64,000 nt of DNA from Fibrobacterales bacterium (GTDB lineage Bacteria > Fibrobacterota > Fibrobacteria > Fibrobacterales > CADBQJ01): positions 7,453 to 71,452 of the forward strand of contig JAGCEZ010000055.1 of assembly GCA_017650365.1 (NCBI GenBank), given 5' to 3'. Numbering within the stretch: position 1 is the stretch's first letter; each line of letters opens with the position of its first letter. The notes under the pieces are model-generated. The model ran no database searches and was not told the origin of the DNA. It saw nothing but the letters and a program-made list of their open reading frames with translations. Both the position numbers and the translations under genes were made by a program. This document shows positions 1,197 to 58,969 of this stretch, in pieces.

Positions 1197-2074
1197 TCCG
1201 CGGCCCTCTCGCGCAGGTGTCCGAGCACGGTCCGCGCCGAGGCGGAGGCGGCGACCAGGACGAGCAGCAGGACGATTCCCCCGCCGCACCGGCCCAGGGG
1301 CGCGAACCACTCCTCCCAGGCCGGGAAGCCGGAGGCGAGGCGCGCCATCGCGAACTCCCAGACCCCCCAGGCGGCCGAGCCCCCGAGGAGCGCGAGCGTG
1401 GCGGACTCGATCGCGAACGGCATGGCGATGGAGCGTTCGCCCGCCCCGACGTACTTCATGTTCTCGATCAGGAGCGCGCGGGCGTAGAGCGAGACGCGCA
1501 CCGCGTTCCCCAGGATGACGCGGAAGGCGAGGACCATCAGCAGGAGCAGCGCCCCGAGCAGGGTCTCCGCGCGGGCCTTCCACTCCGCGACGCGTTCCAG
1601 CGTCTCGAGCGAGGAGTTCGCGAACTCCACGCCGGGGAGCGCGGCCAGGGCGCCCGCCCACGGACGGTAGCGGAAGGCGTTCTTGAACTCCCCGGACGGC
1701 CAGACGTCGAAGGAGCGCGGGAGCGGGTTGTCGCCCGCGAGGTCGAGCGCGTCGGGCCCGAACGCCCGCGTGAACCGCTCCGCCGCGGCGCTCTTGTCCA
1801 CGAACAGGAGGTCGCCCGTCCCCTCGGTACCGCGGATCCTCTCCTCCAGCGCGGCGACCTCCGCGTCGGAGAGGTCGTCGGAGAGGAAGAGCTCCAGCTT
1901 CCAGGAATCCTCGGGCATCGGCGCCGCGCGGCGCACCACGAGGAACGCGGCCACGGTCCCCTCGAGCACGAGGGCGGCCAGAAGCACGGTGACGAGCGTG
2001 GGGAGGAGGAGACGGCGGTTCCGTCCCCAGCCGCGGAACGACTCGCGCAGAAGATGTGCGAAGTTCGAAAGCAT
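1193..2074 (-). CDS. ftsX: FtsX-like cell-division permease
   Basis: N-terminus ..LRESFRGWGRNRRLLLPTLVTVLLAALVL, a large periplasmic loop, then three C-terminal TM segments, which is the FtsX architecture. The track ORF starts at TTG 2092. ATG 2074 is preferred because it lies 15 nt downstream of a minus-strand TATTATTG box. Confidence 0.75.
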   Translation of the reverse strand: MLSNFAHLLRESFRGWGRNRRLLLPTLVTVLLAALVLEGTVAAFLVVRRAAPMPEDSWKLELFLSDDLSDAEVAALEERIRGTEGTGDLLFVDKSAAAERFTRAFGPDALDLAGDNPLPRSFDVWPSGEFKNAFRYRPWAGALAALPGVEFANSSLETLERVAEWKARAETLLGALLLLMVLAFRVILGNAVRVSLYARALLIENMKYVGAGERSIAMPFAIESATLALLGGSAAWGVWEFAMARLASGFPAWEEWFAPLGRCGGGIVLLLVLVAASASARTVLGHLRERAAE

Positions 2075-2099
2075 CCGATTTACCGATACCAATAATAGT

Positions 2100-2107
2100 T
2101 AGATTTA
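2100..2107 (+). promoter_or_regulatory. -7 type promoter box TAGATTTA upstream of tsaD
   Basis: Only AT-rich island in the 36-nt ftsX/tsaD divergent spacer. 21 nt before ATG 2129, with a GGAG SD in between. The mirror box TATTATTG (2097-2090) faces ftsX. Confidence 0.5.
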
Positions 2108-2128
2108 GGACCCTTTCCGGAGCGGAAG

Positions 2129-3145
2129 ATGATCGTGCTCGGCATCGAAAGTTCCTGCGACGAAACCGCCTGCGGCATCGTGGACGGCGACGGCAGGGTG
2201 CTGGCCAACGAACTCTACTCGCAGATCCCCGAACACGCGCCCTTCGGGGGCGTCGTCCCCGAAGTGGCCGCCCGCGCGCACCTCGAGAAGGTCGGCCCGA
2301 TCGTCCGGGCCGCGCTCGACAAGGCGGGAATCGCCCTTCCGGACGTGGACGTCGTTGCCTACACGCGCGGCCCGGGGCTCATGGGCCCGGTCCTCGTCGG
2401 GGCCTCGTTCGCGCGCGGGCTCGCCGCGGCGCTCGGAAAGCCGGCGGCCGGAATCAACCACCTCGAGGGCCACATCGCCGCGGCGAGGCTCTCGCACCCG
2501 GACCTGGAGCCCCCGTTCCTGGCCCTCACGGTCTCGGGCGGGCACACCCAGATCGACCGCGCGCTTCCGGGCTTCCGGTTCGAGACGCTCGGGCAGACGC
2601 GCGACGACGCCGCGGGCGAGGCGTTCGACAAGTGCGGGAAGCTGCTCGGGCTGGGCTACCCCGCCGGACCCTACGTCAGCCGCGAGGCGAAGAACGGAGA
2701 CCGCTCGGCGTTCCGCTTCCCGCGGGCCCTGCGCGGCGTCGACACGCTGGACTTCAGCTTCTCCGGGCTCAAGAGCGCGGTCCTGCGGCTCGTGGAGAGC
2801 CGGCCCGCCGAAGAGCTTCTCGCCCGCCGCGCGGACGTCTGCGCCGGGCTGGAGGAGGCGATCGTGGACATGCTGACCGAGCGCGCGCTGCAGGCGGGCC
2901 AGGCGACCGGAATCAAGACCCTCGCGGTCTGCGGCGGGGTCTCCGCGAACCCGAGACTGCGCGAAAAGCTCCCGGCCGAACTGGAGAAGCGCGGCATGAA
3001 GGCCCTCTTCCCCGACCTGCGCTACTGCACCGACAACGGCGCGATGATCGCCGGAGCCGCCCTTTTCCGCCTGAAATCGCAGTGTCTGGTTTTTGAACAT
3101 TTGCCGGTCTCCCCGGGGCTGGAACTCGGCGAATTTCTACAATAG
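2129..3145 (+). CDS. tsaD: tRNA N6-adenosine threonylcarbamoyltransferase TsaD
   Basis: MIVLGIESSCDETACGIVDG.. signature, 338 aa, colinear with the Kae1/TsaD family. GGAG-type SD precedes ATG 2129. Confidence 0.95.
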   Translation: MIVLGIESSCDETACGIVDGDGRVLANELYSQIPEHAPFGGVVPEVAARAHLEKVGPIVRAALDKAGIALPDVDVVAYTRGPGLMGPVLVGASFARGLAAALGKPAAGINHLEGHIAAARLSHPDLEPPFLALTVSGGHTQIDRALPGFRFETLGQTRDDAAGEAFDKCGKLLGLGYPAGPYVSREAKNGDRSAFRFPRALRGVDTLDFSFSGLKSAVLRLVESRPAEELLARRADVCAGLEEAIVDMLTERALQAGQATGIKTLAVCGGVSANPRLREKLPAELEKRGMKALFPDLRYCTDNGAMIAGAALFRLKSQCLVFEHLPVSPGLELGEFLQ

Positions 3146-3842: not shown

Positions 3843-3850
3843 TACATTTG
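3843..3850 (+). promoter_or_regulatory. -7 type promoter box TACATTTG
   Basis: Perfect TAnnTTTG, 23 nt before TTG 3874, with GGGAGG at 3864-3869. Confidence 0.5.
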
Positions 3851-3873
3851 CGCCTCCGAGATCGGGAGGTCGC

Positions 3874-5751
3874 TTGCTTTCGCTGGAAACACATCTGGAC
3901 TCGGCGCCGAAGAGCGTCCTGGCCCCCATGCGCCGCCACTGGAACCTGGCGCCCGGCAGCGTGGTCTCCAACGCGGCGGTCGCGCAGGCCGTCCGCGAGC
4001 GCGCCTTCGACGCGGACCGGATCCAGGCCCTGCTCGAGCGGTGCACCCCCGCGCAGCGCGACGTCCTCTGGGCGGTCTACGGCTCCGGCGACCGCGGCCT
4101 TCCGGTCGAGTCGCTCCGCGCCGCCTTCCCCTCCGCCGAACGCCATCTCCTCGACGACACCGTCGAGGAGTTCCGGCGCGAACTGGTCGTCGCGCGGACG
4201 GGCGGAGGCAATCCGGTCCTGCACGGCTTCTCCGAGCTCTGGCCCGACCTGGCCGACCGCTTCGCCGACTCGGTCCCCGCGGCGGAGAAGGGCAGCCTCG
4301 CCGAAATCGGCTACGAGGCCTTCGCCGTCCAGCACCTCCTCCATCTCTTCGCCGCGCTCGCGAAGGCCCCCTGGAAGTGCACGCGCGAGGGGGCGGTCAA
4401 GCAGAGCGACCGCCGGGAGTACGACAAGTCGTTCCGCTTCGGGAAGCAGATCTCCCCGCGCCTCTTCACCGAGGTCGTGGACGGCAAGATCTCCCCGGCC
4501 ATGGGCGAGGAGCTGGCGCTCCTGCTCGAGCTTTCGCGCCGCCTGGGGTTCGTCGCCCGCGACGACGAGGGGATCCGCCTCCGCGCCCGGGCCGAGGCGG
4601 CCGCCCGCAAAAACTGCCGCGAGCTCTGGACCGCGCTGCTGGACGCCTGGACCGCGGCGCGGGGATTCTCCGCCGAAGGCCTGCGCACGCTGCTGAGGAC
4701 GCTCTCCACGCCGCGCCGCGCGCGCCCGTGGTGCAAGATCTGGTCGCTGCGCGAACGCCTGGACGCGGACCGGAAGCTGCGCTGGAGCGGGCTTCCCGCC
4801 CAGCTGCGCGAACTGGTCGTGCTGGGGATGGTCCGCCTGGGGACGGACGCCTCGGGGAGCGTGGAACTCCTGGGGCTGACGCAGTGCGCGTCCGTCTGGT
4901 GCGAGACCGGGAGCCTTCCGGCCGAGCTCGCGGAGGCCATGCCCGGATACGCGACCGCGAACTTCGAGGTCTTCGTCCCGATCACCTCCTGCGGCGAACA
5001 CGCCTGGACGCTGCACCGCGCGGCCGAACTGGCCGCGGACGAGCAGTTCCTGAAGTTCACGCTGACCGAGGAGCGGCTGCTGGAGGCCCTGCGCGGCGGC
5101 GTGGATCCGCACGACGTGCGCTCGCTCGCCGAATGGCTGAAGCTCCCCCGCGGCCCCGCGAAGACGCTGGAGGAGTGGCTGAAGTCGTTCGAGCGCTGCC
5201 GCCTGCTGCGCCCGCTGCTGCTGGAGGTGCGCGACGACGCGCTGCGCGGGAAGCTGATGGCGAGCCGCGCCCTCTCCGAATGGATCTCGTGCGAGATCGA
5301 CGGCTTCGGGCTGGTGCTCCGCGACGGAGCCGAGTCGGCCGTCCTCCCGATTCTGGAGAGCTACGGCCTGCATCCGCGCCTTCCCTCCGAGGAGGGCGCC
5401 CCCCTGCCGGACGAGCCCGCGCCCGAATCCGCGCCCGCCGCCAAGCCAGCGCCGGAGATCGACTGGAGCTGGAGCGACCCGCCGCCCGAAACCGCGCTCC
5501 GCTTCGGGGAAATCGACCTCTCCGGGAACGGGTTCGGCGAAAAGACCCCGGACCAGCGCCGGCGCCTGCTGCGCCACTGCGCGGTCAACCGGCTCGAGGC
5601 CACGCTCTGGTGGCGCGACCAGGAGGGGAAGCCGCCGAAGAAGATCCGCGTCGTCCTCGAGGACTGCGACGGCGACACGGTCTCCGGCTCCGACGAAAAG
5701 GGCCGCCCCGTCCGCGTGGAGATCGCGAAGATCGCGAACCTGCGGTTCTGA
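3874..5751 (+). CDS. Hypothetical protein with a segment resembling the XPB/Ssl2 N-terminal 'helicase-associated' domain; no helicase core
   Basis: 625-aa ORF with high GC3. TTG start preceded by GGGAGG (3864-3869) and a TACATTTG box (3843-3850). The segment LKFTLTEERLLEALRGGVDPHDVRSLAEWLKLPRGPAKTLEEWLKSFER resembles, from memory, the bacterial XPB-associated domain. Confidence 0.55.
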   Translation: MLSLETHLDSAPKSVLAPMRRHWNLAPGSVVSNAAVAQAVRERAFDADRIQALLERCTPAQRDVLWAVYGSGDRGLPVESLRAAFPSAERHLLDDTVEEFRRELVVARTGGGNPVLHGFSELWPDLADRFADSVPAAEKGSLAEIGYEAFAVQHLLHLFAALAKAPWKCTREGAVKQSDRREYDKSFRFGKQISPRLFTEVVDGKISPAMGEELALLLELSRRLGFVARDDEGIRLRARAEAAARKNCRELWTALLDAWTAARGFSAEGLRTLLRTLSTPRRARPWCKIWSLRERLDADRKLRWSGLPAQLRELVVLGMVRLGTDASGSVELLGLTQCASVWCETGSLPAELAEAMPGYATANFEVFVPITSCGEHAWTLHRAAELAADEQFLKFTLTEERLLEALRGGVDPHDVRSLAEWLKLPRGPAKTLEEWLKSFERCRLLRPLLLEVRDDALRGKLMASRALSEWISCEIDGFGLVLRDGAESAVLPILESYGLHPRLPSEEGAPLPDEPAPESAPAAKPAPEIDWSWSDPPPETALRFGEIDLSGNGFGEKTPDQRRRLLRHCAVNRLEATLWWRDQEGKPPKKIRVVLEDCDGDTVSGSDEKGRPVRVEIAKIANLRF

Positions 5752-9489: not shown

Positions 9490-10863
9490 CTACTCCTCGT
9501 GGAACGAGATGGCGCACTTCGGCGCGAAGACGAACTCGCCGCGCCGGCGCCGCACGATGATCAGCTCGGGATGGCTCTCCTCGAGCCGCGCCATCAGGCG
9601 GTTGAGCCGCCCCTCGAAGTTCGGGTTCGAGACGTCGAGCGTGATCTCCGCGTCGCGCTTGAACTCGCGGTTCTCGAACGTCGTCCGCCCGGTGAGGAGG
9701 TAGGTCTTCAGCACGCGCCGGAAGATCTTCGCGGGGACGTTGCGGATGAAGTGCTCGCCGTTGATGGTGACGCTGTCGTCGACCGAGTGGTAGACGACCT
9801 CGGTCTTCGCCGAAATCGACTGGAGAAGGGCCGAATGGAGCGCGTCGATCCTCCGCGCGGTCTTCTTGTCCTCCGACAGGAGCCCTTCGACCAGGAGCTT
9901 CAGCGGATTGGCCGGGCCCTTCTTCGCCGGGAAGGGGGCGTAGCGGATGCGCGCGAGATAGACCGGGGCGCCGCAGCAGCAGCCCGGGCGGACGCGGGGC
10001 GGAACGCCCTTCGGGAGCTTCTCCGCGAGGACGACGACCGGGGAGTCCACGTCGAGCGGGTCGCGCATCGGCAGCCCGAACGACTTCGCCGCGGCCGAGA
10101 AGGCCTTGACCGCGCCGACCTCGCTCCCCTTCCAGAACGCCTTCTTCCCGCGGATCTCCAGGCCGGGGAGGAGGGTTTCGGCGGGAAGCACGTCGGCCAT
10201 CAGGTCGAGCTCCTCGTAGGGGGGCATCCCGAAGACCTCGGGCAGGTGCCGCAGCCAGGGGCAGAACCAGCGCGAGACGTCGAAGGGGATGCCCGTCGAC
10301 TCGTCCGCGTCGAAGAGGAACCAGGCCTCCGACGACGTCTTCCCGGGGCGGATCTCGATCAGCTCGTTGGTGCTGTGCGGGAAGAAGGTGCGGCTCAGCC
10401 GCTCGAACCGCTCCAGCAGGAACTCGCGGCGGTCCGGCGCGGCCAGCATGTCGCCCAGGTGGGGGTTGACCAGCGCCAGCCAGGCCTCCGCGGAGAAGAA
10501 CCGCCAGGGATGGACGCCGGAGTAGAAGGTCTTCACGAACTCGTCGAAGTCGATCCGCTCGTCGGCGCAGAACTCCTCCAGGGCTCCGAAGATCCTCCGG
10601 GCGACCTCGACCGGGACGGGCATCTCGGGGTCGCAGAGCAGCTGGATCTTCCGGAACGCGTCGAGGACGACCCCGTTGCGCTCCACGGGGATCCGGTCGA
10701 GGAAGCGCCCGATCTGCGGAGCGGAGAAGGAGAGGAGCATCGCCTTGTAGACGTGCCGGACGACGCTGATTTCGGGCGTCCCGTCGGCGGAGACGTCGTT
10801 TCCCAGGAATCCGGGGACGGAGGCCGGGGGAAGGAGGATCGTGTTGTTGGCCTGGAGCTTCAC
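9490..10863 (-). CDS. Putative transcriptional regulator: unrecognised about 350-aa N-terminal domain plus OmpR/PhoB-like winged-helix C-terminus
   Basis: C-terminus ..VTINGEHFIRNVPAKIFRRVLKTYLLTGRTTFENREFKRDAEITLDVSNPNFEGRLNRLMARLEESHPELIIVRRRRGEFVF follows the trans_reg_C pattern. GTG 10863 sits 5 nt after a minus-strand TATATTTA box, and codons 10741-10863 have high GC3. Alternative start ATG 10740. Confidence 0.6.
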   Translation of the reverse strand: MKLQANNTILLPPASVPGFLGNDVSADGTPEISVVRHVYKAMLLSFSAPQIGRFLDRIPVERNGVVLDAFRKIQLLCDPEMPVPVEVARRIFGALEEFCADERIDFDEFVKTFYSGVHPWRFFSAEAWLALVNPHLGDMLAAPDRREFLLERFERLSRTFFPHSTNELIEIRPGKTSSEAWFLFDADESTGIPFDVSRWFCPWLRHLPEVFGMPPYEELDLMADVLPAETLLPGLEIRGKKAFWKGSEVGAVKAFSAAAKSFGLPMRDPLDVDSPVVVLAEKLPKGVPPRVRPGCCCGAPVYLARIRYAPFPAKKGPANPLKLLVEGLLSEDKKTARRIDALHSALLQSISAKTEVVYHSVDDSVTINGEHFIRNVPAKIFRRVLKTYLLTGRTTFENREFKRDAEITLDVSNPNFEGRLNRLMARLEESHPELIIVRRRRGEFVFAPKCAISFHEE

Positions 10864-10868
10864 ATGGG

Positions 10869-10876
10869 TAAATATA
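10869..10876 (-). promoter_or_regulatory. -7 box TATATTTA for the divergent regulator gene (leaderless geometry)
   Basis: Minus strand reads TATATTTA-cccat-GTG(10863). Confidence 0.55.
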
Positions 10877-10880
10877 TTTG
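10873..10880 (+). promoter_or_regulatory. -7 box TATATTTG for mutL (leaderless geometry)
   Basis: Perfect TAnnTTTG, 4 nt before GTG 10885. Overlaps the opposite-strand box by 4 bp. Confidence 0.55.
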
Positions 10881-10884
10881 GTTT

Positions 10885-12723
10885 GTGGCTCCGCGCATCC
10901 GATTTCTTCCCGAAGAATGCATCAACCAGATCGCCGCGGGCGAGGTGATCGAACGCCCCGCCTCCGTGGTCAAGGAGCTGGCGGAGAACGCGCTGGACGC
11001 CGGCGCGCGCAGAATCACCGTCCAGATCGCCGGCGGAGGCCGGGAGCTGGTCCGGATCGTGGACGACGGCTGCGGGATCCCCCGCGGGGACGTCGCCGTC
11101 TGCGCGCTGAGGCACACCACCTCCAAGCTCTCGGACGCCCGCGAGCTCTTCGGGATCCGGACCAACGGGTTCCGGGGCGAGGCCCTCGCCTCCATCGCCG
11201 CCGTGGCCCGGCTGAAGATCCAGACCCGCACGGAGGACGAGGAGGCCGGCTCCGAGCTGGTCGTCTCGCCCGGGCGCGAGCCCGAGGTCCGCGACTGCGC
11301 GCGCGAGCGCGGGACGACGGTCACGGTGGAGGACCTCTTCCTCAACGCCCCCGTCCGCGCCAAGTTCCTCTCCTCCCCAGCCGCCGAGACGGGCCGGATC
11401 CTCGACGTGCTCCAGCGCCTCGCCCTGGCCAACCCCGAAGTCGCGTTCCGGCTGCGGCAGGACGACCGCGACCTCCTTCTCGCCGGCCCGGGCGACCTCG
11501 CGCGCCGGACGAAGGAGATCCTCGACCCCGCGATCTCCGGCAACCTCCTTCCGGTCGAATGGGAGGAGGAGGGCGTCCGGATCTCCGGGTTCGTCGGGAA
11601 CGAGAGGACCCTGAAGGCGCGGCGCGCGCACCAGTACCTGTTCCTCGACCGCCGCCCGATCTGGAACGCGGCGCTCTTCCGCGCCGTCGCGCTGGGCGCC
11701 GAGGCGCTGCACGGAAACCCGGCCGCGGTCCTCTTCTTCTCGCTTCCGCCCGAAGAGGTGGACGTGAACGTGCACCCCGCGAAGCGGGAGGTGCGGTTCG
11801 CGCACGAAAGCCGGCTGTTCGAGATCGCGGTCCACGCGGTGCGGGCCGCCCTGGCCGGGCGCGTGGAATGGGCGCCCGCCCCGGAACAGGCGCCCGGGAA
11901 CGGGCCCGCTCCCGCGCCGGATCCCGGACCCGCGCCCGCGGAGAGGCCCGTCCCCCGCGGCGTCCCCGCGGGACGGGCGGCCGCCGCCTGGAAGGACTTC
12001 GCGTGGCGCGTGGAGGAGGCCCCGAAGGACGAGATCAAGGAGCTTTCGCGCGACCTCTTCGCCGAGGCGGAGGAGCGCGAGAAGGCGCTCCGCATGCCCG
12101 AGCGCGACCGGATCGCGGGGATCGACGCCGCGGAGTCCGGGGAACCCGCCGCGAACTTCCTCCAGGTCGGGAACTCCTTCGTCGTCGCGCCCTACGCCGG
12201 AGGGCTGCTGCTGATCGACCAGCGCGCCGCCCACCAGCGCATCCTCTTCGAGCAGGCGCGGAGGCGGATGCAGCGCCGCGAGAACCGCTCGCAGCAGCTG
12301 CTCTTCCCCGAACTGCTGGAGCTGAGCCCCGCGCAGAGCCACTGGGTCTCGAGCTCGCTCGAATCGCTTTCGCTCGTCGGGTTCGAGGTGGAGCACTTCG
12401 GCGCGAACTCCTGGCAGCTCCGCGCCACGCCGCCGGACATGACCGTCGGGAACGCCGTGGAGACCCTCAAGGGGATGGCCGACGACGCAGAAGAGGCGGA
12501 CCCGAAGATCGAGGAGGACTTCTGCGACCGTCTCGCGCTCTCCTTCGCGAAGAAGGCCTCCATCGACGAACGCGCCCTCTCCCCCGAGGAGACGGCCGCG
12601 CTCGTGGACGACCTCTTCGCCACCGAGAACCCCTACGTCGCGCCCGACGGCTCCTCCGTCGTCGTCAAGCTGACTTTGGACGAGATCCGCGACAGCTTCC
12701 GCAGAAAGGGACCGCGCGGATGA
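10885..12723 (+). CDS. mutL: DNA mismatch repair protein MutL (endonuclease motifs degenerate)
   Basis: N-terminal GHKL ATPase: IRFLPEECINQIAAGEVIERPASVVKELAENALDAGA..VDDGCGI. GTG 10885 is 4 nt after a TATATTTG box. The upstream in-frame ATG 10864 is followed by low-GC3 codons (atg ggt aaa tat att tgg ttt). Confidence 0.9.
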   Translation: MAPRIRFLPEECINQIAAGEVIERPASVVKELAENALDAGARRITVQIAGGGRELVRIVDDGCGIPRGDVAVCALRHTTSKLSDARELFGIRTNGFRGEALASIAAVARLKIQTRTEDEEAGSELVVSPGREPEVRDCARERGTTVTVEDLFLNAPVRAKFLSSPAAETGRILDVLQRLALANPEVAFRLRQDDRDLLLAGPGDLARRTKEILDPAISGNLLPVEWEEEGVRISGFVGNERTLKARRAHQYLFLDRRPIWNAALFRAVALGAEALHGNPAAVLFFSLPPEEVDVNVHPAKREVRFAHESRLFEIAVHAVRAALAGRVEWAPAPEQAPGNGPAPAPDPGPAPAERPVPRGVPAGRAAAAWKDFAWRVEEAPKDEIKELSRDLFAEAEEREKALRMPERDRIAGIDAAESGEPAANFLQVGNSFVVAPYAGGLLLIDQRAAHQRILFEQARRRMQRRENRSQQLLFPELLELSPAQSHWVSSSLESLSLVGFEVEHFGANSWQLRATPPDMTVGNAVETLKGMADDAEEADPKIEEDFCDRLALSFAKKASIDERALSPEETAALVDDLFATENPYVAPDGSSVVVKLTLDEIRDSFRRKGPRG

Positions 12724-47693: not shown

Positions 47694-48806
47694 TCAGCGG
47701 CGGCCGAAGAACCGCCTGCAGGGCTTCTCGATTCCGTAGTGCAGCGCGGCCGCCAGGGCGCACGTCCAGACGGCCGCGACCGCCAGCCTCGCGAAATCGC
47801 CGGCTCCGTCCAGAAGATCCGTGTTCGCCTCGAGGATTTCGACCGGACGCCACGAGAAGAACTGCGCCAGGAAGAACGCGTAGGCGTTCTCGGCCAGGAC
47901 CCCGGCCGCCTTCGGGACGCGATTCCCGCCGTGGCGCGTTTCAAGCCTCGCGCACAGGTACAGCACGGTCCCGAAGCAGGGGATGGCGGCGAAGTTGAAC
48001 AGTTCGACGCACGAGCGCAGGTTCCGGACCCAGAGTTCGATTCCCAGCGGCAGCGCGAGGCAGCAGGCGAAGACCGCCCACCGGAGGTTCACCGGGATTT
48101 CCTTGCCGGAATCTTCGGCGAAGAGCCTGCCGACGACCACGCCGATCGAAAACTCCGCCAGGCGCAGCAGCGGGTTCGCGTAGATGTCCGCGAAGCCGAA
48201 GCGGTAGGCGGGCAGGAACGCGTAGCTCGAAACGCAGTAGAGGGCGCCCGCCAGCAGAAGGGCGTTCCGGCGGGACGCGCCCGCGACGACCGCGGAAACG
48301 TAGGGATAGAAGAGATAGCAGACGAAGATGCAGGAGACGAACCACGTCCCGTCGTTGTGCAGGAACGAGAACGAGCCGGCGAAGACGGACTGGAGCATCG
48401 GGAGCTCCACGGGCGCCGCGACGAGGTTGTCCAGCGGCCCGACGGCGCCGGCGGCGCGCATGCCCGGAATCCGGGACGCCGCGAACCCGTCCAGGAGCCA
48501 GAGGGCGTAGACGGCGGCGTAGAGCGGGTAGATCGCCGCGAGCCGCCTCTTCAGGAACGCGCCGACGTCGCCGAGGCCGGGACCTTGCGCGAACCTTCCC
48601 CTTCTCCAGTCGACGTAGTAGAGGCAGAAGCCGCTCAGCATGAAGAAGGCCACCATGAAGACGTGGCCCTTGCCGACGAAGCGGTCCAGGAACCCGTAGT
48701 CGACGCCGAGCTGGATGTTCGAGTGGAAGAGGAACACCATCAGCGCGCAGAGGGCCCTGAAGAGGTCGATCGAACGCAGGCGTCCGCCGCGCGGCGCGTT
48801 TTCCAT
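47694..48806 (-). CDS. Acyltransferase family 3 (OafA-like) integral membrane protein
   Basis: ..RLRSIDLFRALCALMVFLFHSNIQLG.., about 10 TM segments, 370 aa. Confidence 0.85.
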   Translation of the reverse strand: MENAPRGGRLRSIDLFRALCALMVFLFHSNIQLGVDYGFLDRFVGKGHVFMVAFFMLSGFCLYYVDWRRGRFAQGPGLGDVGAFLKRRLAAIYPLYAAVYALWLLDGFAASRIPGMRAAGAVGPLDNLVAAPVELPMLQSVFAGSFSFLHNDGTWFVSCIFVCYLFYPYVSAVVAGASRRNALLLAGALYCVSSYAFLPAYRFGFADIYANPLLRLAEFSIGVVVGRLFAEDSGKEIPVNLRWAVFACCLALPLGIELWVRNLRSCVELFNFAAIPCFGTVLYLCARLETRHGGNRVPKAAGVLAENAYAFFLAQFFSWRPVEILEANTDLLDGAGDFARLAVAAVWTCALAAALHYGIEKPCRRFFGRR

Positions 48807-48816
48807 GCGGGCTTTC

Positions 48817-50067
48817 CTACCGGGCTTTCCGGAGACCGGGTCCGGGAATCGTCATTTCGGGCGCGGAGGCGCTGCGGCGCGCGACGAGGCGACGCTGCAG
48901 GCCCGCGAAATCGGGGGCGGGCGGAGGCGCGGGCCGCGCGGCGGAGGAGTCCGGGAGCGCGGAGGCGGAGGAGTCCGCCGCGGAGGAACCGGCCGGGGCG
49001 CGCGCCAGCGCGTAGGCGGCCGCGAGCTGTTCGTCCGGATCGGAGACGAGCGTGTCGGGCTCGATCCCGACGCCGTGGTACGTCCTGCCGTCGGCCGCGG
49101 AGAAGATCACCATCGACGTGACCGACAGCATGCCGCCGTGCGGCCCGTCGAGCAGGCTCTGCCCGATTCCCTTGCCGTAGCTGCGCGTTCCGACGACCGG
49201 GATCTTCGGGTCGGCGGCGGACTGGACGGAGGTGGCCACGAGCTCGGCGCAGCTGGCCGACCCGCTGTCCTGCAGGACGACCCAGCGGCGCCCTTCGCCG
49301 CGGCCGCCGTCGGCGCCGACGACCGTGGTGTACTCGGGCACGTCCGCGTTCAGGCGCGACCAGCCGCGCCAGAGGACGAAAAAGGGCTGCGCGCCCAGAA
49401 TCTCGTCCGCGACCCCCATGCAGGCCGCGTAGTCGCCGCCGGGATTGCCGCGCAGGTCGAGGATCGTCGCCCTGTCCGACGCCGTAGCGTCGAGCGCGTC
49501 GAGGAACTCGCTCCACGTGCCCGCGGTGTCGCCCGATTCGCGCCCGACGGAGTGTCTCCGGAAACTGGAGATCTGGACGAGCGCGACCTCGTCGTCGAGC
49601 CGCTCCACGAAGACCGTCGTGTCCACGGTCGCCTCGTCCGCCGTCCAGTAGGCGTGGGCCTGCGCGGAGTCGAGATAGCGCGAGAACGGATCCAGGAACC
49701 CTTCGGACGCGCCGACGGCCCGGACGTCGGAGAGCACCTCGGGAATCGAGCCGTACCTCCACCAGTCGCCCAGGCCCGGGCCGTAGGGGTGGAGGAACGC
49801 CGTGTAGTACCAGACGAAGTAGAACTCCTCCAGCGGGGCGCCGGTCAGCGCGTTGCGCGCGGAGGAGGGGCGCGAAGCCTCCAGGGTTCCGGCCGGGGTT
49901 CCGGGACCGGGGATCTCCCCGCCGTCTCCGGGCTTCGACGACGACAGGCCGCCGCCCCCGCCGACCGAGACCGCGGTCGGGCCGTCGTTCGCGGAGCACG
50001 AGAGGAGAAGCGCAGCCGACGCGGCGAGGAAGAGAAGAAGCGCGCGGAACGTCCGGTTCTTCGCCAT
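48817..50067 (-). CDS. S41-family (C-terminal processing type) serine peptidase, lipoprotein
   Basis: LLLSC/SAND lipobox. ILDLRGNPGG, DSGSASCAELVA (nucleophile Ser region) and GTRSYGKGIGQ (Lys) motifs. Confidence 0.8.
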   Translation of the reverse strand: MAKNRTFRALLLFLAASAALLLSCSANDGPTAVSVGGGGGLSSSKPGDGGEIPGPGTPAGTLEASRPSSARNALTGAPLEEFYFVWYYTAFLHPYGPGLGDWWRYGSIPEVLSDVRAVGASEGFLDPFSRYLDSAQAHAYWTADEATVDTTVFVERLDDEVALVQISSFRRHSVGRESGDTAGTWSEFLDALDATASDRATILDLRGNPGGDYAACMGVADEILGAQPFFVLWRGWSRLNADVPEYTTVVGADGGRGEGRRWVVLQDSGSASCAELVATSVQSAADPKIPVVGTRSYGKGIGQSLLDGPHGGMLSVTSMVIFSAADGRTYHGVGIEPDTLVSDPDEQLAAAYALARAPAGSSAADSSASALPDSSAARPAPPPAPDFAGLQRRLVARRSASAPEMTIPGPGLRKAR

Positions 50068-50077
50068 CCGGAACCTC

Positions 50078-50656
50078 CTATTCCCCGCGGCCCTCTTCCC
50101 GCCCCTCGCGGGCGGCGAGCCTCGCCTTCCGCCGTTCGGCGCGGTCGCGCAGGAACTTCGCGTTCTTCGCGCGCATCGCCCAGTAGGCGAGGAAGTAGAA
50201 GAGGACGGCGAATGCCGTCGCCACGATCGTCATCCCGACGACGAAGGCGAGGAGGTGGTCGCCGGCCACGGAGGCGAGCATCTTCAGCGTTTCGGGCGTC
50301 TCCGCCAGGCTCATCCCCTTCAGCGTCCCCAGGAGGTCGATCGCCAGGGGGCGCGTCTCGACGATGTGCCGCCCGGTCCAGTAGCCCAGCGGGTAGAAGA
50401 AGGGGAAGATCGTCGGGGGGACGGCGATGAAGGAGCTGATGCAGCCCGGGAGCTTCGGGAGCTTGAAGAGTTCGAGCGTGGCGATGGTGAGGACGAGCGC
50501 GACGCCGAAGGTCGGCATCAGCCCGATGAAGACGCCGACGGCCACGGAGAGCGCGACGGGGTTGGCCCCCTCGCGGCGCGGCAGCATCTTGTGCCACCAG
50601 AGCCGCCCCAGCCGGGGGAGCTTCGGGTGCTTGAGCCGGACGTTTCCGAAAATCAT
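50078..50656 (-). CDS. DUF2062-family membrane protein
   Basis: MIFGNVRLKHPKL..NPVALSVAVGVFIGLMPTFGVALVLTIA.. ATGA overlap with the DJ-1 stop. The longer track ORF (to 51274) is out of frame with the DJ-1 gene. Confidence 0.7.
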   Translation of the reverse strand: MIFGNVRLKHPKLPRLGRLWWHKMLPRREGANPVALSVAVGVFIGLMPTFGVALVLTIATLELFKLPKLPGCISSFIAVPPTIFPFFYPLGYWTGRHIVETRPLAIDLLGTLKGMSLAETPETLKMLASVAGDHLLAFVVGMTIVATAFAVLFYFLAYWAMRAKNAKFLRDRAERRKARLAAREGREEGRGE

Positions 50657-51213
50657 GCGAACAGCGCCGAAACTCGGACCTTTTCCGCGGTCTCTTTCCC
50701 CTCGAGCGCCTCGAGGAGGGCGAGCCCGAACTCCGCGGCCGTCCCGGCCCCGCGGCTCGTGATCAGGTTTCCGTCCACGACGACGCGGTCCTGCAGATAG
50801 GTCAGGGAACCGTCGTCGAGCTTCGCCTGTTCCGCGGGGAAGCTGGTGATCCTGCGGCCTTTCAGGATCCCGGCGCGCTTCAGGACTCGGGGCGCCGCGC
50901 AGATCGCGGCCACGATCCGGCCCTTCGAGGCGTACGTCCAGACGATCTCCAGGACCCGCTCGTCCGCTTCGAGGCGCGCGGTTCCGGGCCCGCCGCCCGG
51001 GAGGAGCACCGCGTCGAAACCGTCCGCGGAGACCTCGTCCAGCGTCGAATCGGCGGAAACGGAGATGCCGTGGGCGCCTTCGACGTCCCACGATCCGTCG
51101 TCGGCGATCGAGCAGAGGACCACCTCGACGCCGCCGCGGCGCAGAACGTCGACCGGAACGACCAGTTCGGTCTCCTCGAATCCCTCGGCCATCAGGGCGA
51201 GCACGCGTTTCAT
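50653..51213 (-). CDS. DJ-1/PfpI (YajL/ThiJ-like) family protein
   Basis: MKRVLALMAEGFEETELVVPVDVLRRGG.., nucleophile elbow AAICAAP, ..ITSRGAGTAAEFGLALLE.. Confidence 0.88.
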   Translation of the reverse strand: MKRVLALMAEGFEETELVVPVDVLRRGGVEVVLCSIADDGSWDVEGAHGISVSADSTLDEVSADGFDAVLLPGGGPGTARLEADERVLEIVWTYASKGRIVAAICAAPRVLKRAGILKGRRITSFPAEQAKLDDGSLTYLQDRVVVDGNLITSRGAGTAAEFGLALLEALEGKETAEKVRVSALFA

Positions 51214-51218
51214 ATCGG

Positions 51219-51226
51219 CAAAGATA
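51219..51226 (-). promoter_or_regulatory. -7 box TATCTTTG for the DJ-1 operon (leaderless geometry)
   Basis: Minus strand reads TATCTTTG-ccgat-ATG(51213); perfect TAnnTTTG. Confidence 0.6.
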
Positions 51227-51235
51227 GGAAGTTTC

Positions 51236-51243
51236 TAGTTTTG
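51236..51243 (+). promoter_or_regulatory. -7 box TAGTTTTG for hslO-thrH (leaderless geometry)
   Basis: TAGTTTTG-cgccc-GTG(51249); perfect TAnnTTTG. Confidence 0.6.
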
Positions 51244-51248
51244 CGCCC

Positions 51249-52121
51249 GTGAAAGAGACCATCATCCGGGCCACCGGAAAGACCGTTCCCCTCCGCTATG
51301 TCGTCGTCTCGCTCCGCGAGGCGATGGACGAGATCGGCGCCCGCCACGGGGCCGAGGGCTGGATGCTCGAACGGATGTCCGAGTGCGCCATCGCATCGTT
51401 CTTCCTCAGCTCCTCGCTCAAGTGCGCGGGGGCGCTCAGCCTGATCACCTACTGGGACGGCGAGGTTTCGCGCATCGAGTCCGACACCACGCCCATGGGC
51501 CTGGTCCGGGCCCGCGCCATCCACGACGAGGTCCTCGCGCTGGGACCGCGCGTCCCCAAGGCGACCCCGGTCCGGATGGAGACCCGCCGCTTCGACGAAA
51601 AGGGCAAGATCCTCGCCCACAGCGTGGTCAACATGGGCAAGGCCTCCGTCGCGCAGAACCTGGCGGTCTACCTCTTCCAGTCCGAACAGGTGAAGGCGGC
51701 CGTCGGCATCCAGGCCGTCGCCGACCCGGAAAATCCCGCCCGCCTGAAGATGGCCGCCGGCTGGATGATCGAGGCCTTCCCCGACTGCGACGCCGCGTCG
51801 CTGGCCAAGGCCGAGGAGGTCGCGCGGAACCTTCCGCCCCTCGAGGCCTTCCTGACGCCCGAAGGGTTCGACGAGCACGCCCTGCTCTCCGCGCTCGCCG
51901 GGGACGTGGACGTGCAGATCCACCGCGAAATCGACCCGAAGCCCTTCTGCCCCTGCTCGCGCGAACGGATGCGCAACAACGTCATCGCGCTCGGGAAGAA
52001 GCAGCTCCTGGCCCTCCGCGACGAACAGCACGGCGCGCAGGCGGTCTGCGAATTCTGCCGCACCGAATACGACTTCACCGAGGCCGACCTCGACGAGATG
52101 ATCCGGGGACTGGGGAAATGA
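51249..52121 (+). CDS. hslO: Redox-regulated chaperone Hsp33
   Basis: C-terminal zinc switch CPCS..(25 aa)..CEFCRTEYDF. GTG start 5 nt after a TAGTTTTG box. Confidence 0.88.
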   Translation: MKETIIRATGKTVPLRYVVVSLREAMDEIGARHGAEGWMLERMSECAIASFFLSSSLKCAGALSLITYWDGEVSRIESDTTPMGLVRARAIHDEVLALGPRVPKATPVRMETRRFDEKGKILAHSVVNMGKASVAQNLAVYLFQSEQVKAAVGIQAVADPENPARLKMAAGWMIEAFPDCDAASLAKAEEVARNLPPLEAFLTPEGFDEHALLSALAGDVDVQIHREIDPKPFCPCSRERMRNNVIALGKKQLLALRDEQHGAQAVCEFCRTEYDFTEADLDEMIRGLGK

Positions 52122-52732
52122 GCGAAAAGCAGAACATCGTCGTGATGGACCTCGAAGGGGTCCTCGTCCCCGAAATCTGGATCGCCTTCGCCGAAAAGAC
52201 CGGCATCCCCGAACTCCGCCGGACCACGCGCGACGAGCCCGACTACGACAAGCTGATGCGCGGCCGCCTGAAGATCCTCGACGACCGCGGGCTCGGCCTG
52301 CCCGACATCCAGGAGACGATCGGCTCCCTCCGCCCGCTCGACGGCGCGAAGGAGTTCATCTCCCGGCTCCGCGAAGAGACGCAGGTGATCATCCTCTCCG
52401 ACACCTTCGAGCAGTTCGCCGCGCCGCTGATGAAGCAGCTCGGCTGGCCGACCCTCCTCTGCCACCGGCTGGTGACCGACGAAACGGGCCGCATCGTGGA
52501 CTACAGGCTGCGGATGCAGAACCAGAAGATGCGCGCCGTGGAGGCGCTCCAGTCGCTCAACTACCGCGTGATCGCCTTCGGAGACTCCTTCAACGACACG
52601 GCGATGATCGGCAAGGCCGACTGCGGCTACCTCTTCCACGCGCCGCAGAACATCCGGGAGCGGTTCCCGCAGTTCCCCGCGTTCGACGACTACCCCGAGC
52701 TGCTGGCCGAAATCGAGTCGCAGCTGCGCTGA
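52118..52732 (+). CDS. thrH: ThrH-type HAD phosphoserine phosphatase/homoserine phosphotransferase
   Basis: MDLEGVLVPEIWIAFAEKTGI..ILSDTF..LLCH..FGDSFNDTAM..LFHAP is near-colinear with Pseudomonas ThrH as recalled from memory. ATGA overlap with the hslO stop. Confidence 0.88.
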   Translation: MSEKQNIVVMDLEGVLVPEIWIAFAEKTGIPELRRTTRDEPDYDKLMRGRLKILDDRGLGLPDIQETIGSLRPLDGAKEFISRLREETQVIILSDTFEQFAAPLMKQLGWPTLLCHRLVTDETGRIVDYRLRMQNQKMRAVEALQSLNYRVIAFGDSFNDTAMIGKADCGYLFHAPQNIRERFPQFPAFDDYPELLAEIESQLR

Positions 52733-52779
52733 ACGCGGCGAAATCGCCTCAAAAACCGAAATTCCGGCGCGAGAACGGA

Positions 52780-52808
52780 GTGGCCACAGCGGTGACCACT
52801 TCTTTTTT
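52780..52808 (+). terminator. Intrinsic terminator after thrH
   Basis: GTGGCCAC-agcg-GTGACCAC (8-bp stem with one C/A mismatch) followed by TTCTTTTTT. Confidence 0.65.
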
Positions 52809-57294: not shown

Positions 57295-57302
57295 TAGATT
57301 TC
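57295..57302 (+). promoter_or_regulatory. -7 box TAGATTTC for GH18 paralog 1
   Basis: GGGGTAGATTTCGG, 34 nt before the ATG. Conserved with the paralog 2 upstream region. Confidence 0.5.
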
Positions 57303-58961: not shown

Positions 58962-58969
58962 TAGATTTC
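58962..58969 (+). promoter_or_regulatory. -7 box TAGATTTC for GH18 paralog 2
   Basis: GGGGCTAGATTTCC, 38 nt before the ATG. Confidence 0.5.

What the first reader, a model, noticed from the sequence alone, without database searches (positions are those of the whole stretch)
51211..51251. Back-to-back divergent promoters with start codons 5 nt after a perfect TAnnTTTG box: leaderless hslO and DJ-1 operons
The 35-bp spacer between the DJ-1 gene (ATG 51213, minus) and hslO (GTG 51249, plus) holds two perfect TAnnTTTG octamers, one per strand. They are TATCTTTG (51226-51219) and TAGTTTTG (51236-51243). Each is followed by exactly 5 nt and then the start codon. There is no room for a Shine-Dalgarno sequence. 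If the octamer is the Bacteroidota-type -7 element, transcription starts at or within 1-2 nt of the start codon, so both operons would be leaderless. One of them would use GTG. Both genes are oxidative or electrophile stress functions (Hsp33, DJ-1), which suggests a shared compact control region.
Basis: partly seen in the sequence, partly recalled or inferred. Interest (0 to 1): 0.62.

Follow-up and report, generated by a model that had tools for sequence, protein, structure and literature searches.

The report
Back-to-back leaderless promoters, hslO and DJ-1
In a high-GC rumen bacterium of the phylum Fibrobacterota, a 35-bp gap between two divergent stress genes holds two promoter boxes placed so that each mRNA should begin at its own start codon; the layout is real and conserved for one gene, but it belongs to a known class of gene organisation.

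Summary
TATCTTTG (51226..51219, minus) lies 5 nt before ATG 51213 (DJ-1). TAGTTTTG (51236-51243, plus) lies 5 nt before GTG 51249 (hslO). These are two of only four perfect TAnnTTTG octamers in 64 kb.

The genome is a ~70% GC Fibrobacterota MAG relative, not Bacteroidota. Twenty-three distinct hslO upstream sequences (window, its close relatives, Fibrobacter) plus two deeper relatives, one of them Hallerella, carry TnCTAnnTTT(G/A), 4-5 nt, then the start codon. One further relative has a one-mismatch box and one is leadered. The box follows the start codon even though the N-terminal length varies.

In Flavobacterium the -7 box lies 4-5 nt from the TSS, so transcription should start on the start codon. 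Leaderless hslO is therefore well supported in silico. Leaderless DJ-1 is supported only in the high-GC clade; in Fibrobacter DJ-1 has a TATAAT-like box and a GGAGG leader.

An unrelated pair in the window, mutL and an unknown gene at 10863/10885, has an even tighter conserved 21-nt version. The layout is therefore a general promoter and leaderless habit of this lineage, not a stress-specific control region. No TSS data exist.

Verdict: a new member of a known kind, of moderate interest.

The parts
51249..52121 (+). hslO (Hsp33), GTG start at 51249. It is 290 aa and carries the C-terminal CxC...CxxC zinc redox switch.
   Evidence: Pfam HSP33 scores 1.5e-39 and covers residues 4-277 against profile positions 2-273. 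No upstream in-frame start is possible. The N-terminus KETIIRATG is conserved against the Fibrobacter sequence KDRIIRATG.
51244..51248 (+). 5-nt spacer cgccc between the plus box and GTG. It ends in a pyrimidine at -1.
   Evidence: The spacer varies between relatives (gggcc in L001). The base at -1 of the start is C or T in 23 of 23 distinct orthologous sequences.
51236..51243 (+). TAGTTTTG, the predicted -12..-5 (or -13..-6) promoter element of hslO.
   Evidence: T-12, A-11, T-8, T-7 and T-6 are invariant and position -5 is G or A in 23 distinct hslO upstream sequences. The box is also present in L045 and in L046 (Hallerella).
51227..51235 (.). 9-bp centre ggaagtttc. It supplies the T(-15)/C(-13) upstream extension of both boxes: gTTTC before TAGTTTTG on the plus strand and cTTCC before TATCTTTG on the minus strand.
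   Evidence: T-15 is found in 23/23 and C-13 in 22/23 hslO orthologues. The same TTT(A/T)C precedes the boxes of prfC and sufB and the box at 3843. The centre is identical in L001 and L015.
51219..51226 (-). TATCTTTG, the predicted -12..-5 (or -13..-6) promoter element of the DJ-1 operon.
   Evidence: The box is identical in L001, L014 and L015, while the 5-nt spacer differs (ccgat against gccat).
51214..51218 (-). 5-nt spacer (ccgat on the minus strand) between the minus box and ATG.
50653..51213 (-). DJ-1/PfpI family gene of 186 aa, ATG at 51213. It is the first gene of an operon.
   Evidence: Pfam DJ-1_PfpI scores 3.2e-49 and covers residues 2-168 against profile positions 1-164. No upstream in-frame start is possible.
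50078..50656 (-). DUF2062 membrane protein. Its ATG overlaps the DJ-1 stop (ATGA).
48817..50067 (-). S41 peptidase-like gene, next in the DJ-1 transcription unit. It is followed by an acyltransferase at 47694-48812.
   Evidence: Pfam Peptidase_S41 and Acyl_transf_3.
52118..52732 (+). HAD-family hydrolase. Its ATG overlaps the hslO stop (ATGA), so it is the second gene of the hslO operon.
   Evidence: The hslO-HAD order is conserved in all relatives examined.
10861..10887 (.). Second, tighter example of the same design. It reads GTG 10863 (minus; unknown conserved 457-aa protein), cccat, the 12-bp island TAAATATATTTG, gttt, then GTG 10885 (plus; mutL). The island holds two overlapping boxes: TATATTTA on the minus strand at 10876..10869 and TATATTTG on the plus strand at 10873-10880.
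   Evidence: The N-terminus of the unknown protein is conserved. The island CAAATATATTTA with 4-5-nt spacers is conserved in L042, L039 and L041 (73%, 51% and 45% identity). In L040, mutL alone keeps box + 4 nt + ATG.

Best explanation
The 35-bp spacer is a minimal pair of back-to-back divergent core promoters. Each consists of a -10/-7-type element of the FCB-group form (TnC-TAnnTTTG) with no recognisable -35/-33 element.

I infer the following mechanism. RNA polymerase with the housekeeping sigma melts the AT island and initiates 5-6 nt after the final G, that is on the purine of the start codon (or 1 nt before it). The hslO-HAD and DJ-1-DUF2062-S41 mRNAs are then leaderless, and ribosomes initiate on a 5'-terminal GUG (hslO) or AUG (DJ-1) without a Shine-Dalgarno contact.

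The two predicted start sites are only about 35 bp apart, so the two polymerase footprints overlap and only one orientation can be occupied at a time.

The layout is a general habit of this lineage. About a quarter of the transcription-unit heads in the window show it. Leaderless hslO is conserved across nearly all Fibrobacterota relatives examined. Leaderless DJ-1 appears to have arisen in the compact, high-GC clade by loss of an SD-containing leader.

Shown here: the sequence, its conservation, the spacing, the absence of SD and the correctness of the start codons. Inferred: the TSS positions, the sigma factor used, and leaderless translation.
For: 1. Geometry. In F. johnsoniae, bona fide promoters have 4 or 5 nt between the -7 element (T-12 A-11 T-8 T-7 T-6 G-5) and the TSS (PMC6847099). 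F. psychrophilum places the box at -12..-5 (PMC9723704). Here the box-to-start-codon distance is 5 nt for both genes.

2. Conservation for hslO. All 23 distinct upstream sequences have TAnnTTT(G/A), 4 nt (14 cases) or 5 nt (9 cases), then the start. T-15, C-13, T-12, A-11 and T-8..-6 are invariant or nearly so. Nothing is conserved upstream of -20. The base at -1 is always a pyrimidine and +1 a purine. The same holds in L045 (38% identity) and in Hallerella L046 (36% identity).

3. The box tracks the start codon. The residues before (I/L)IRATG number 3 (window), 4-5 (Fibrobacter) and 9 (L045/L046), yet the spacing stays at 4-5 nt.

4. Window against L001 (84% identity). All 6 differences in the spacer fall in the 14 free positions and none in the 21 box and centre positions (Fisher p about 0.002, my calculation).

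5. The box behaves as a promoter, not an RBS. It lies at variable distances upstream of SD-led genes: sufB at 22-37 nt, window 3843 at 23 nt before GGGAGG-TTG, and 2100 at 21 nt.

6. Independent gene families show the same 4-5-nt arrangement: mutL and the unknown 457-aa gene, prfC and a DUF4423 gene.

7. There is no SD near either start, although other genes in the window have GGAGG-like SDs. No sigma70 -35/-10 promoter is found in 50600-52800, and there are no Rfam elements.
Against: - No transcription start site, ribosome profiling or N-terminal data exist for this organism or, in the library searched, for any Fibrobacter.
- Comparative support for DJ-1 is shallow: two distinct sequences, window/L014 and L001/L015. 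In Fibrobacter the orthologue is clearly leadered with GGAGG.
- The hslO box has G at -10. F. johnsoniae promoters almost never do (TAHHTTTG).
- One relative (L044, 46% identity) has its box 77 nt upstream of hslO, so the leaderless state is not universal.
- The 5' ends of the predicted mRNAs are not less structured than shuffled controls.
- The sigma factor of this lineage was not examined.
- Efficient leaderless initiation on GUG is documented in mycobacteria (Shell et al. 2015, from my own knowledge) but not in this phylum.
Confidence: 0.7

Rival explanations
1. Only hslO is leaderless. The DJ-1 operon is transcribed from the TATCTTTG box but is poorly or differently translated, or it is mainly expressed from another promoter further upstream inside hslO. 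In that case the mRNA carries a leader without SD and initiates by an SD-independent, leadered mechanism, as in Bacteroidota.
For: The DJ-1 orthologue is leadered with a TATAAT-like box and GGAGG in all Fibrobacter loci. In L043 (53% identity) the divergent gene has a TAGCTTTG box followed by a 24-nt leader containing GAGGGG. The leaderless geometry for DJ-1 is seen only in the window/L014 and L001/L015 sequences.
Against: The DJ-1 box is perfect and carries the T-15/C-13 extension. It sits 5 nt from an ATG that is preceded by a pyrimidine, and it is unchanged in L001 while the spacer changes. No SD or A-rich tract precedes the ATG. No other promoter-like site was found nearby.
Confidence: 0.15
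2. The octamers are not promoter elements. They are AU-rich translation signals within longer leaders (a non-SD ribosome-binding or S1-binding site at a fixed distance from the start codon), and transcription starts inside the neighbouring genes.
For: Only about 37% of Fibrobacteria genes have SD (PMC10783764), so other initiation signals must exist. A fixed short distance to the start codon is also what an RBS would show. GeneMarkS-2 notes that promoters and RBSs sit at the same distance and can be confused (PMC6028130).
Against: The same motif occurs at variable distances of 21-77 nt upstream of SD-led genes. That is promoter behaviour, not RBS behaviour. The motif equals the experimentally defined sigma-A -7 element of the sister phylum, and it has the same spacing to the start codon as that element has to the TSS. 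The invariant pyrimidine at -1 and purine at +1 are a transcription-initiation signature. At the mutL pair, a single 12-bp island serves both strands.
Confidence: 0.08
3. The 25-bp near-palindrome CAAAGATAGGAAGTTTCTAGTTTTG is an operator for a dimeric stress regulator that co-controls Hsp33 and DJ-1.
For: 18 of 25 positions are symmetric (my count). The DJ-1/hslO divergent synteny is conserved in most Fibrobacter loci recovered. Both proteins act in oxidative or electrophile stress (established knowledge of Hsp33 and DJ-1).
Against: In Fibrobacter, Hallerella and L045, hslO keeps a single box with no inverted partner, and the DJ-1 promoter lies about 95 nt away. The same half-site precedes the unrelated genes prfC, sufB and mutL. 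Two inverted TnCTAnnTTTG boxes account for the symmetry, and no extra conserved positions remain for an operator.
Confidence: 0.07

Closest known systems
Bacteroidota sigma-A(Bfr) promoters (-7 TAnnTTTG / -33 TTTG)
   Same: The octamer has the same invariant positions T-12, A-11, T-8, T-7, T-6 and G-5. The 4-5 nt from the box to the start codon here equals the 4-5 nt from box to TSS there. The -33 region is weak or absent, as in F. johnsoniae. Sources: PMC6847099, PMC9723704, PMC7366714.
   Different: The host is Fibrobacterota, the sister phylum within the FCB group. A conserved T-15/C-13 extension is seen. G is allowed at -10. TATAAT-like boxes also seem to be used, as in Fibrobacter DJ-1. 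SD sequences are used by many genes. Leaderless mRNAs are rare in Bacteroidota: 3.7% in B. thetaiotaomicron and 5.5% in F. psychrophilum, and 87% of F. johnsoniae leaders exceed 10 nt. Here about 4-5 of roughly 16 transcription-unit heads look leaderless. The sigma factor was not examined.
Leaderless genes of GeneMarkS-2 'group C' bacteria (Actinobacteria, Deinococcus-Thermus)
   Same: A -10-type promoter box lies at a fixed short distance from the start codon of the first gene in an operon. SD is used for the other genes. About 25-50% of operons are leaderless (PMC6028130). GUG as well as AUG is used at the 5' end in mycobacteria (my own knowledge: Shell et al. 2015).
   Different: The box is TAnnTTTG rather than TANNNT, and the phylum is different. 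FCB genomes were 90% 'group B' in that survey, and Fibrobacter is not named in its main text. Supplements were not available.
Bacterial bidirectional promoters (Warman, Grainger and colleagues)
   Same: Divergent transcription comes from a compact, pseudo-symmetric AT-rich core. Only one polymerase orientation can bind at a time. Such promoters often lie between functionally linked divergent genes (PMC12825309). The mutL pair (starts 22 bp apart, overlapping boxes) fits their '23-bp' class.
   Different: The predicted hslO and DJ-1 starts are about 35-36 bp apart with two separate, non-overlapping boxes. That makes them back-to-back promoters rather than a shared -10 element. Both products would be leaderless mRNAs, which that work does not address.

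Membership tests
Bacteroidota-type sigma-A(Bfr) promoter | -7 element TAnnTTTG (T-12 A-11 T-8 T-7 T-6 G-5) | tested here: met
   Both boxes are perfect. The specified positions are invariant across the 23 distinct hslO upstream sequences. G at -10 in TAGTTTTG departs from the refined TAHHTTTG consensus.
Bacteroidota-type sigma-A(Bfr) promoter | -33 element TTTG about 20 nt upstream of the -7 element | tested here: not met
   There is no TTTG at -36..-33 of either box. No position is conserved upstream of -20 in 23 orthologous promoters. This element is also weak in F. johnsoniae.
Bacteroidota-type sigma-A(Bfr) promoter | TSS 4-5 nt downstream of the box | not testable with these tools
   No TSS data exist. 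The start codon lies 4-5 nt downstream, with a pyrimidine at -1 and a purine at +1.
Bacteroidota-type sigma-A(Bfr) promoter | Recognition by a sigma-A(Bfr)-type primary sigma factor (no region 1.1, altered regions 2.3-2.4 and 4.2) in a Bacteroidota host | not tested
   The host is Fibrobacterota. No sigma gene was examined in the window or the loci, and the papers found do not describe the primary sigma factor of Fibrobacterota.
Leaderless mRNA (5' UTR of 0 to about 5 nt) | TSS at or within a few nt of the start codon | not testable with these tools
   This is inferred from the box-to-start spacing and its conservation.
Leaderless mRNA (5' UTR of 0 to about 5 nt) | No Shine-Dalgarno sequence; the start codon is the most upstream possible and agrees with homologues | tested here: met
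Leaderless mRNA (5' UTR of 0 to about 5 nt) | A -10-type promoter box at a fixed short distance from the start codon, conserved in orthologues | tested here: met
   For hslO. For DJ-1 this is met only within the high-GC clade and not in Fibrobacter.
Bidirectional promoter with shared -10 element (Warman type) | Divergent TSSs about 10, 18 or 23 bp apart, around or within one symmetric -10 element | tested here: not met
   The predicted hslO and DJ-1 starts are about 35-36 bp apart, and the two boxes are separated by 9 bp. By sequence geometry the feature is met at the second pair, 10863/10885, where the predicted starts are 22 bp apart and the boxes overlap.

The most novel reading that the evidence does not exclude
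Fibrobacterota as a phylum would use an FCB-type core promoter, TnC-TAnnTTTG, with no -35/-33 element. They would transcribe a substantial share (about a quarter) of their operons as leaderless mRNAs, alongside SD-led genes. GUG-initiated leaderless mRNAs would be tolerated in the high-GC lineage; three of the four candidates here use GTG where lower-GC relatives use ATG. Genome compaction would have produced minimal two-way 'promoter-only' intergenic regions of 21 and 35 bp, in which every base is either box, box extension or the 4-5-nt initiation spacer. This would extend the Bacteroidota promoter type to the sister phylum. It would also offer a natural system in which one polymerase-sized site serves two leaderless operons.
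Probability: 0.5. Interest if true: 0.55.

Novelty: new member of a known kind. Interest (0 to 1): 0.4.

Why it matters
- **Gene calling.** If confirmed, gene starts and promoters in Fibrobacterota, which are major rumen fibre degraders, could be predicted from a simple rule: TnCTAnnTTTG, 4-5 nt, then a start codon. This would improve start-codon calling in MAGs. In L043 the caller missed the GTG and began four codons late.
- **Reach of the promoter type.** It would show that the Bacteroidota-type -7 element is not confined to Bacteroidota.
- **Expression tools.** The 21-bp and 35-bp spacers would be compact natural bidirectional parts for expressing genes in these genetically difficult organisms.
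- **Evolution.** The comparison also records a switch from an SD-led to a leaderless mRNA (DJ-1) as an intergenic region shrank from about 140 bp to 35 bp.

Tried and rejected
- **-33/-35 element.** I looked for one for either promoter and found none. The TTTC at -40..-37 of each promoter is only the complement of the partner gene's second codon AAA, and nothing is conserved upstream of -20.
- **Sigma70 consensus scan** of 50600-52800: 0 sites.
- **Rfam scan** of the whole window: 0 hits.
- **Folding of the first 50 nt** of the four predicted leaderless mRNAs. The two mRNAs of this finding are not less structured than shuffled controls (z -0.14 and +0.49). Only mutL tends that way (z +1.98). 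This evidence is uninformative.
- **Operator hypothesis** for the near-palindrome. Rejected because hslO in Fibrobacter, Hallerella and L045 keeps a single box with no inverted partner.
- **ECF-like reading** (GGAAG, 16 nt, CGT). It would start transcription inside hslO and has no comparative support, so I did not pursue it.
- **Literature.** Searches for Fibrobacter with leaderless, TAnnTTTG, transcription start site, promoter + sigma, and primary sigma factor found no description of Fibrobacter promoters or TSSs. The GeneMarkS-2 supplements are not held.
- **P0027 contig.** No DNA was available.
- **Box distances in the Fibrobacter loci.** The histogram shows a peak at 4-5 nt but is dominated by hslO orthologues. 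I use it only to find other families.
- **Gene calls.** My first two GC3-based gene calls were noisy, with antisense shadows and a merged mutL ORF. The count of about 16 transcription-unit heads is therefore approximate.
Full report
**1. The observation**

On the minus strand, ATG 51213 is preceded by ccgat and then by TATCTTTG (51226..51219). On the plus strand, TAGTTTTG (51236-51243) is followed by cgccc and then by GTG 51249. The window holds only four perfect TAnnTTTG octamers, against 1.34 expected; 5 of 100 shuffles reach four. The count alone is weak evidence. The placement is not.

Three of the four boxes lie 4-5 nt upstream, in the right orientation, of start codons that homology supports (hslO, DJ-1, mutL). 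The fourth, at 3843, lies 23 nt before a TTG preceded by GGGAGG.

**2. The genes and their starts**

- Pfam gives HSP33 (1.5e-39, residues 4-277 on profile 2-273) and DJ-1_PfpI (3.2e-49, residues 2-168 on profile 1-164).
- In-frame stops at 51225-51227 and 51237-51235 exclude earlier starts.
- The Hsp33 N-terminus MKETIIRATG aligns with MNFKDRIIRATG of Fibrobacter.
- Both genes head operons. The hslO stop overlaps the ATG of a HAD hydrolase. The DJ-1 stop overlaps the ATG of a DUF2062 gene, which is followed by an S41 peptidase and an acyltransferase.
- No GGAGG-like sequence lies within 17 nt of either start, although other transcription-unit heads in the window have one.

**3. The organism**

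The window is about 70% GC. The closest genomes are rumen MAGs filed under Fibrobacter. L001 has 84% identity and 69% GC. The Fibrobacter species have 44% identity and about 50% GC. Metagenome contigs add L014 (98% identity) and L015 (84%). Fibrobacterota belong to the FCB group together with Bacteroidota.

**4. Comparative test for hslO**

collects 23 distinct hslO upstream sequences: the window with its close relatives (L014, L001/L015) and the Fibrobacter loci. All carry TAnnTTT(G/A), then 4 nt (14 cases) or 5 nt (9 cases), then the start codon.

- T-15, T-12, A-11, T-8, T-7 and T-6 are invariant.
- C-13 is present in 22 of 23, and position -5 is G in 20 and A in 3.
- Nothing is conserved upstream of -20.
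- The base before the start codon is always C or T.

Deeper relatives keep the arrangement. L045 (38% identity) has TATATTTG-cggc-ATG. Hallerella porci (L046, 36% identity) has TATATTTG-actt-ATG in a 27-nt gap after a co-directional gene. L043 (53% identity) has TAAATTGG-acca-GTG, and there the gene caller had begun four codons too late.

The number of residues before (I/L)IRATG varies from 3 to 9, yet the box stays 4-5 nt from the start. Box and start codon therefore move together.

One relative, L044 (46% identity), is an exception: its box lies 77 nt upstream.

**5. Why this spacing implies leaderless transcripts**

In F. johnsoniae, bona fide promoters have 4 or 5 nt between the -7 element (T-12 A-11 T-8 T-7 T-6 G-5) and the TSS (PMC6847099). 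In F. psychrophilum the box occupies -12..-5 (PMC9723704). The same spacing, now measured to the start codon, together with the pyrimidine(-1)/purine(+1) pattern, places +1 on the A or G of the start codon.

The motif also contains the universal -10 positions TAnnnT, which gives the same prediction. GeneMarkS-2 uses this same logic to define its 'group C' genomes (PMC6028130).

**6. The box is a promoter element, not a ribosome-binding signal**

In the Fibrobacter loci the same TTT(A/T)C-TAnnTTTG precedes several unrelated genes.

- sufB: 22-37 nt upstream, variable, leadered.
- prfC: 5 nt upstream.
- A DUF4423 gene: 4 nt upstream.

In the window, one-mismatch boxes lie 15-38 nt upstream of genes, most of them SD-led: 2074, 2129, 45122, 57337 and 59008. 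A simple sigma70 scan finds no alternative promoter in 50600-52800, and Rfam finds nothing in the window.

**7. DJ-1**

The divergent DJ-1/hslO-HAD arrangement is conserved in most Fibrobacter loci recovered. There, however, the spacer is about 140 bp and DJ-1 has gcTATAATA, a leader of about 20 nt, and GGAGG 4 nt before the ATG.

In L043 the divergent gene has a TAGCTTTG box only 8 nt from the hslO box, followed by a 24-nt leader with GAGGGG. Only its first codons are on the contig.

Only the high-GC clade (window/L014 and L001/L015) has the box 5 nt from the DJ-1 ATG. Between the window and L001, all six differences in the spacer fall in the 14 free positions (the two 5-nt spacers and the nn positions) and none in the 21 box and centre positions. 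I calculate Fisher p of about 0.002.

A leaderless DJ-1 is therefore plausible. It is lineage-specific and less well supported than leaderless hslO.

**8. A second, tighter example**

At 10861-10887 the 21-nt gap between an unknown conserved 457-aa gene (GTG 10863, minus) and mutL (GTG 10885, plus) is cccat-TAAATATATTTG-gttt. The 12-bp island holds two overlapping boxes.

The N-terminus of the unknown protein is conserved. The island CAAATATATTTA with 4-5-nt spacers recurs in orthologous loci of 73%, 51% and 45% identity, with ATG or GTG starts. In L040 (32% identity), mutL alone keeps TATATTTA-tctt-ATG.

This pair fits the bidirectional-promoter class, in which divergent TSSs lie about 23 bp apart (PMC12825309). 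It shows that the design is generic and not tied to stress genes.

**9. How the spacer most likely works**

The spacer holds two separate core promoters set back to back. The 9-bp centre ggaagtttc supplies the T-15/C-13 extension of each box.

The predicted start sites are about 35 bp apart, so the two polymerase footprints overlap. Occupancy in the two orientations should be mutually exclusive, as argued for bidirectional promoters.

No operator needs to be invoked. The 18/25 symmetry follows from two inverted boxes, and in Fibrobacter the hslO box stands alone.

**10. What is known, and how new this is**

- Leaderless mRNAs are rare in Bacteroidota: 3.7% in B. thetaiotaomicron (PMC7366714) and 5.5% in F. 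psychrophilum. In F. johnsoniae 87% of leaders exceed 10 nt.
- FCB genomes were 90% 'group B' in GeneMarkS-2.
- About 37% of Fibrobacteria genes have SD (PMC10783764).
- I found no paper in the held library describing Fibrobacter promoters, TSSs or leaderless genes.
- In this window about 4-5 of roughly 16 transcription-unit heads look leaderless: hslO, DJ-1, mutL, the 10863 gene, and possibly dnaE, which has TATTATCT 7 nt before its ATG. This count rests on my approximate gene map.

**11. Verdict**

The leaderless reading is well supported for hslO and reasonably supported for DJ-1, but it has no TSS data behind it. The 'shared stress control region' is not supported as such.

This is a new member of known kinds: leaderless genes behind a -10/-7 box, and compact divergent promoters. 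It occurs in a phylum where this had not been described in the papers I could search. Interest is moderate.

Noticed in passing
window 10861-10887 (also L039 629-655, L041 806-831, L042 1216-1242): A 21-nt gap separates mutL from a Fibrobacterota-specific 457-aa protein of unknown function. The gap is a single 12-bp AT island (TAAATATATTTG) holding two overlapping TAnnTTT(G/A) boxes, each 4-5 nt from a start codon. It is conserved down to 45% protein identity. It looks like a minimal bidirectional promoter producing two leaderless mRNAs.
   Followed up: yes
window 9490-10863 (minus): A conserved 457-aa protein with no Pfam domain. Its full-length homologues (27-79% identity) come mostly from unnamed metagenome contigs, one of them labelled Fibrobacterota. 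It has a very conserved C-terminal third (NVPAKIF...FENREFKRD...NPNFEGRLNRL). It lies between dnaE and mutL in the four relatives checked.
   Followed up: partly
window 3843-3876: The fourth perfect box (gttttcTACATTTG) is followed by cgCCTCCgagatcGGGAGGtcgcTTG. The hairpin would pair the Shine-Dalgarno GGGAGG of the next gene (TTG 3874) with an upstream CCTCC. This may be an SD-sequestering leader.
   Followed up: no
L002-L038, DJ-1 upstream regions (e.g. L003 3859-3900, minus strand): In Fibrobacter the DJ-1 gene has a canonical-looking gcTATAATA box, a leader of about 20 nt and GGAGG. Fibrobacter therefore seems to use both TATAAT-like and TAnnTTTG-like boxes.
   Followed up: partly
window 51227-52732 compared with L003 and other Fibrobacter loci: Intergenic regions are much shorter in the high-GC lineage. 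The DJ-1/hslO gap is 35 bp against about 140 bp, and hslO/HAD is an ATGA overlap against a gap of roughly 130 bp. The start codons of leaderless candidates have shifted from ATG to GTG.
   Followed up: partly
L043 69-83: The public gene call for this hslO orthologue starts at ATG 81. The homologous start is GTG 69, which sits 4 nt after a TAAATTGG box. This is an example of leaderless GTG starts being miscalled in MAG annotation.
   Followed up: partly
window 2074-2129: A further divergent pair, an FtsX-like gene (minus) and tsaD (plus), has back-to-back one-mismatch boxes: TATTATTG on the minus strand at 2097..2090 and TAGATTTA on the plus strand at 2100-2107. Here the boxes are followed by short leaders of 15 and 21 nt.
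   Followed up: no
window 57295-57302 and 58962-58969: Two adjacent genes of similar size are each preceded by the same gggTAGATTTC box, 34-38 nt upstream of an SD-led ATG. They may be paralogues with duplicated promoters.
   Followed up: no
L010, L031, L007/L011/L038 upstream regions: Short tandem-like repeats (gctcaccgctcaccgctcat...; ctagatcctagcccctagatcc...) fill some Fibrobacter intergenic regions just upstream of the promoter boxes.
   Followed up: no
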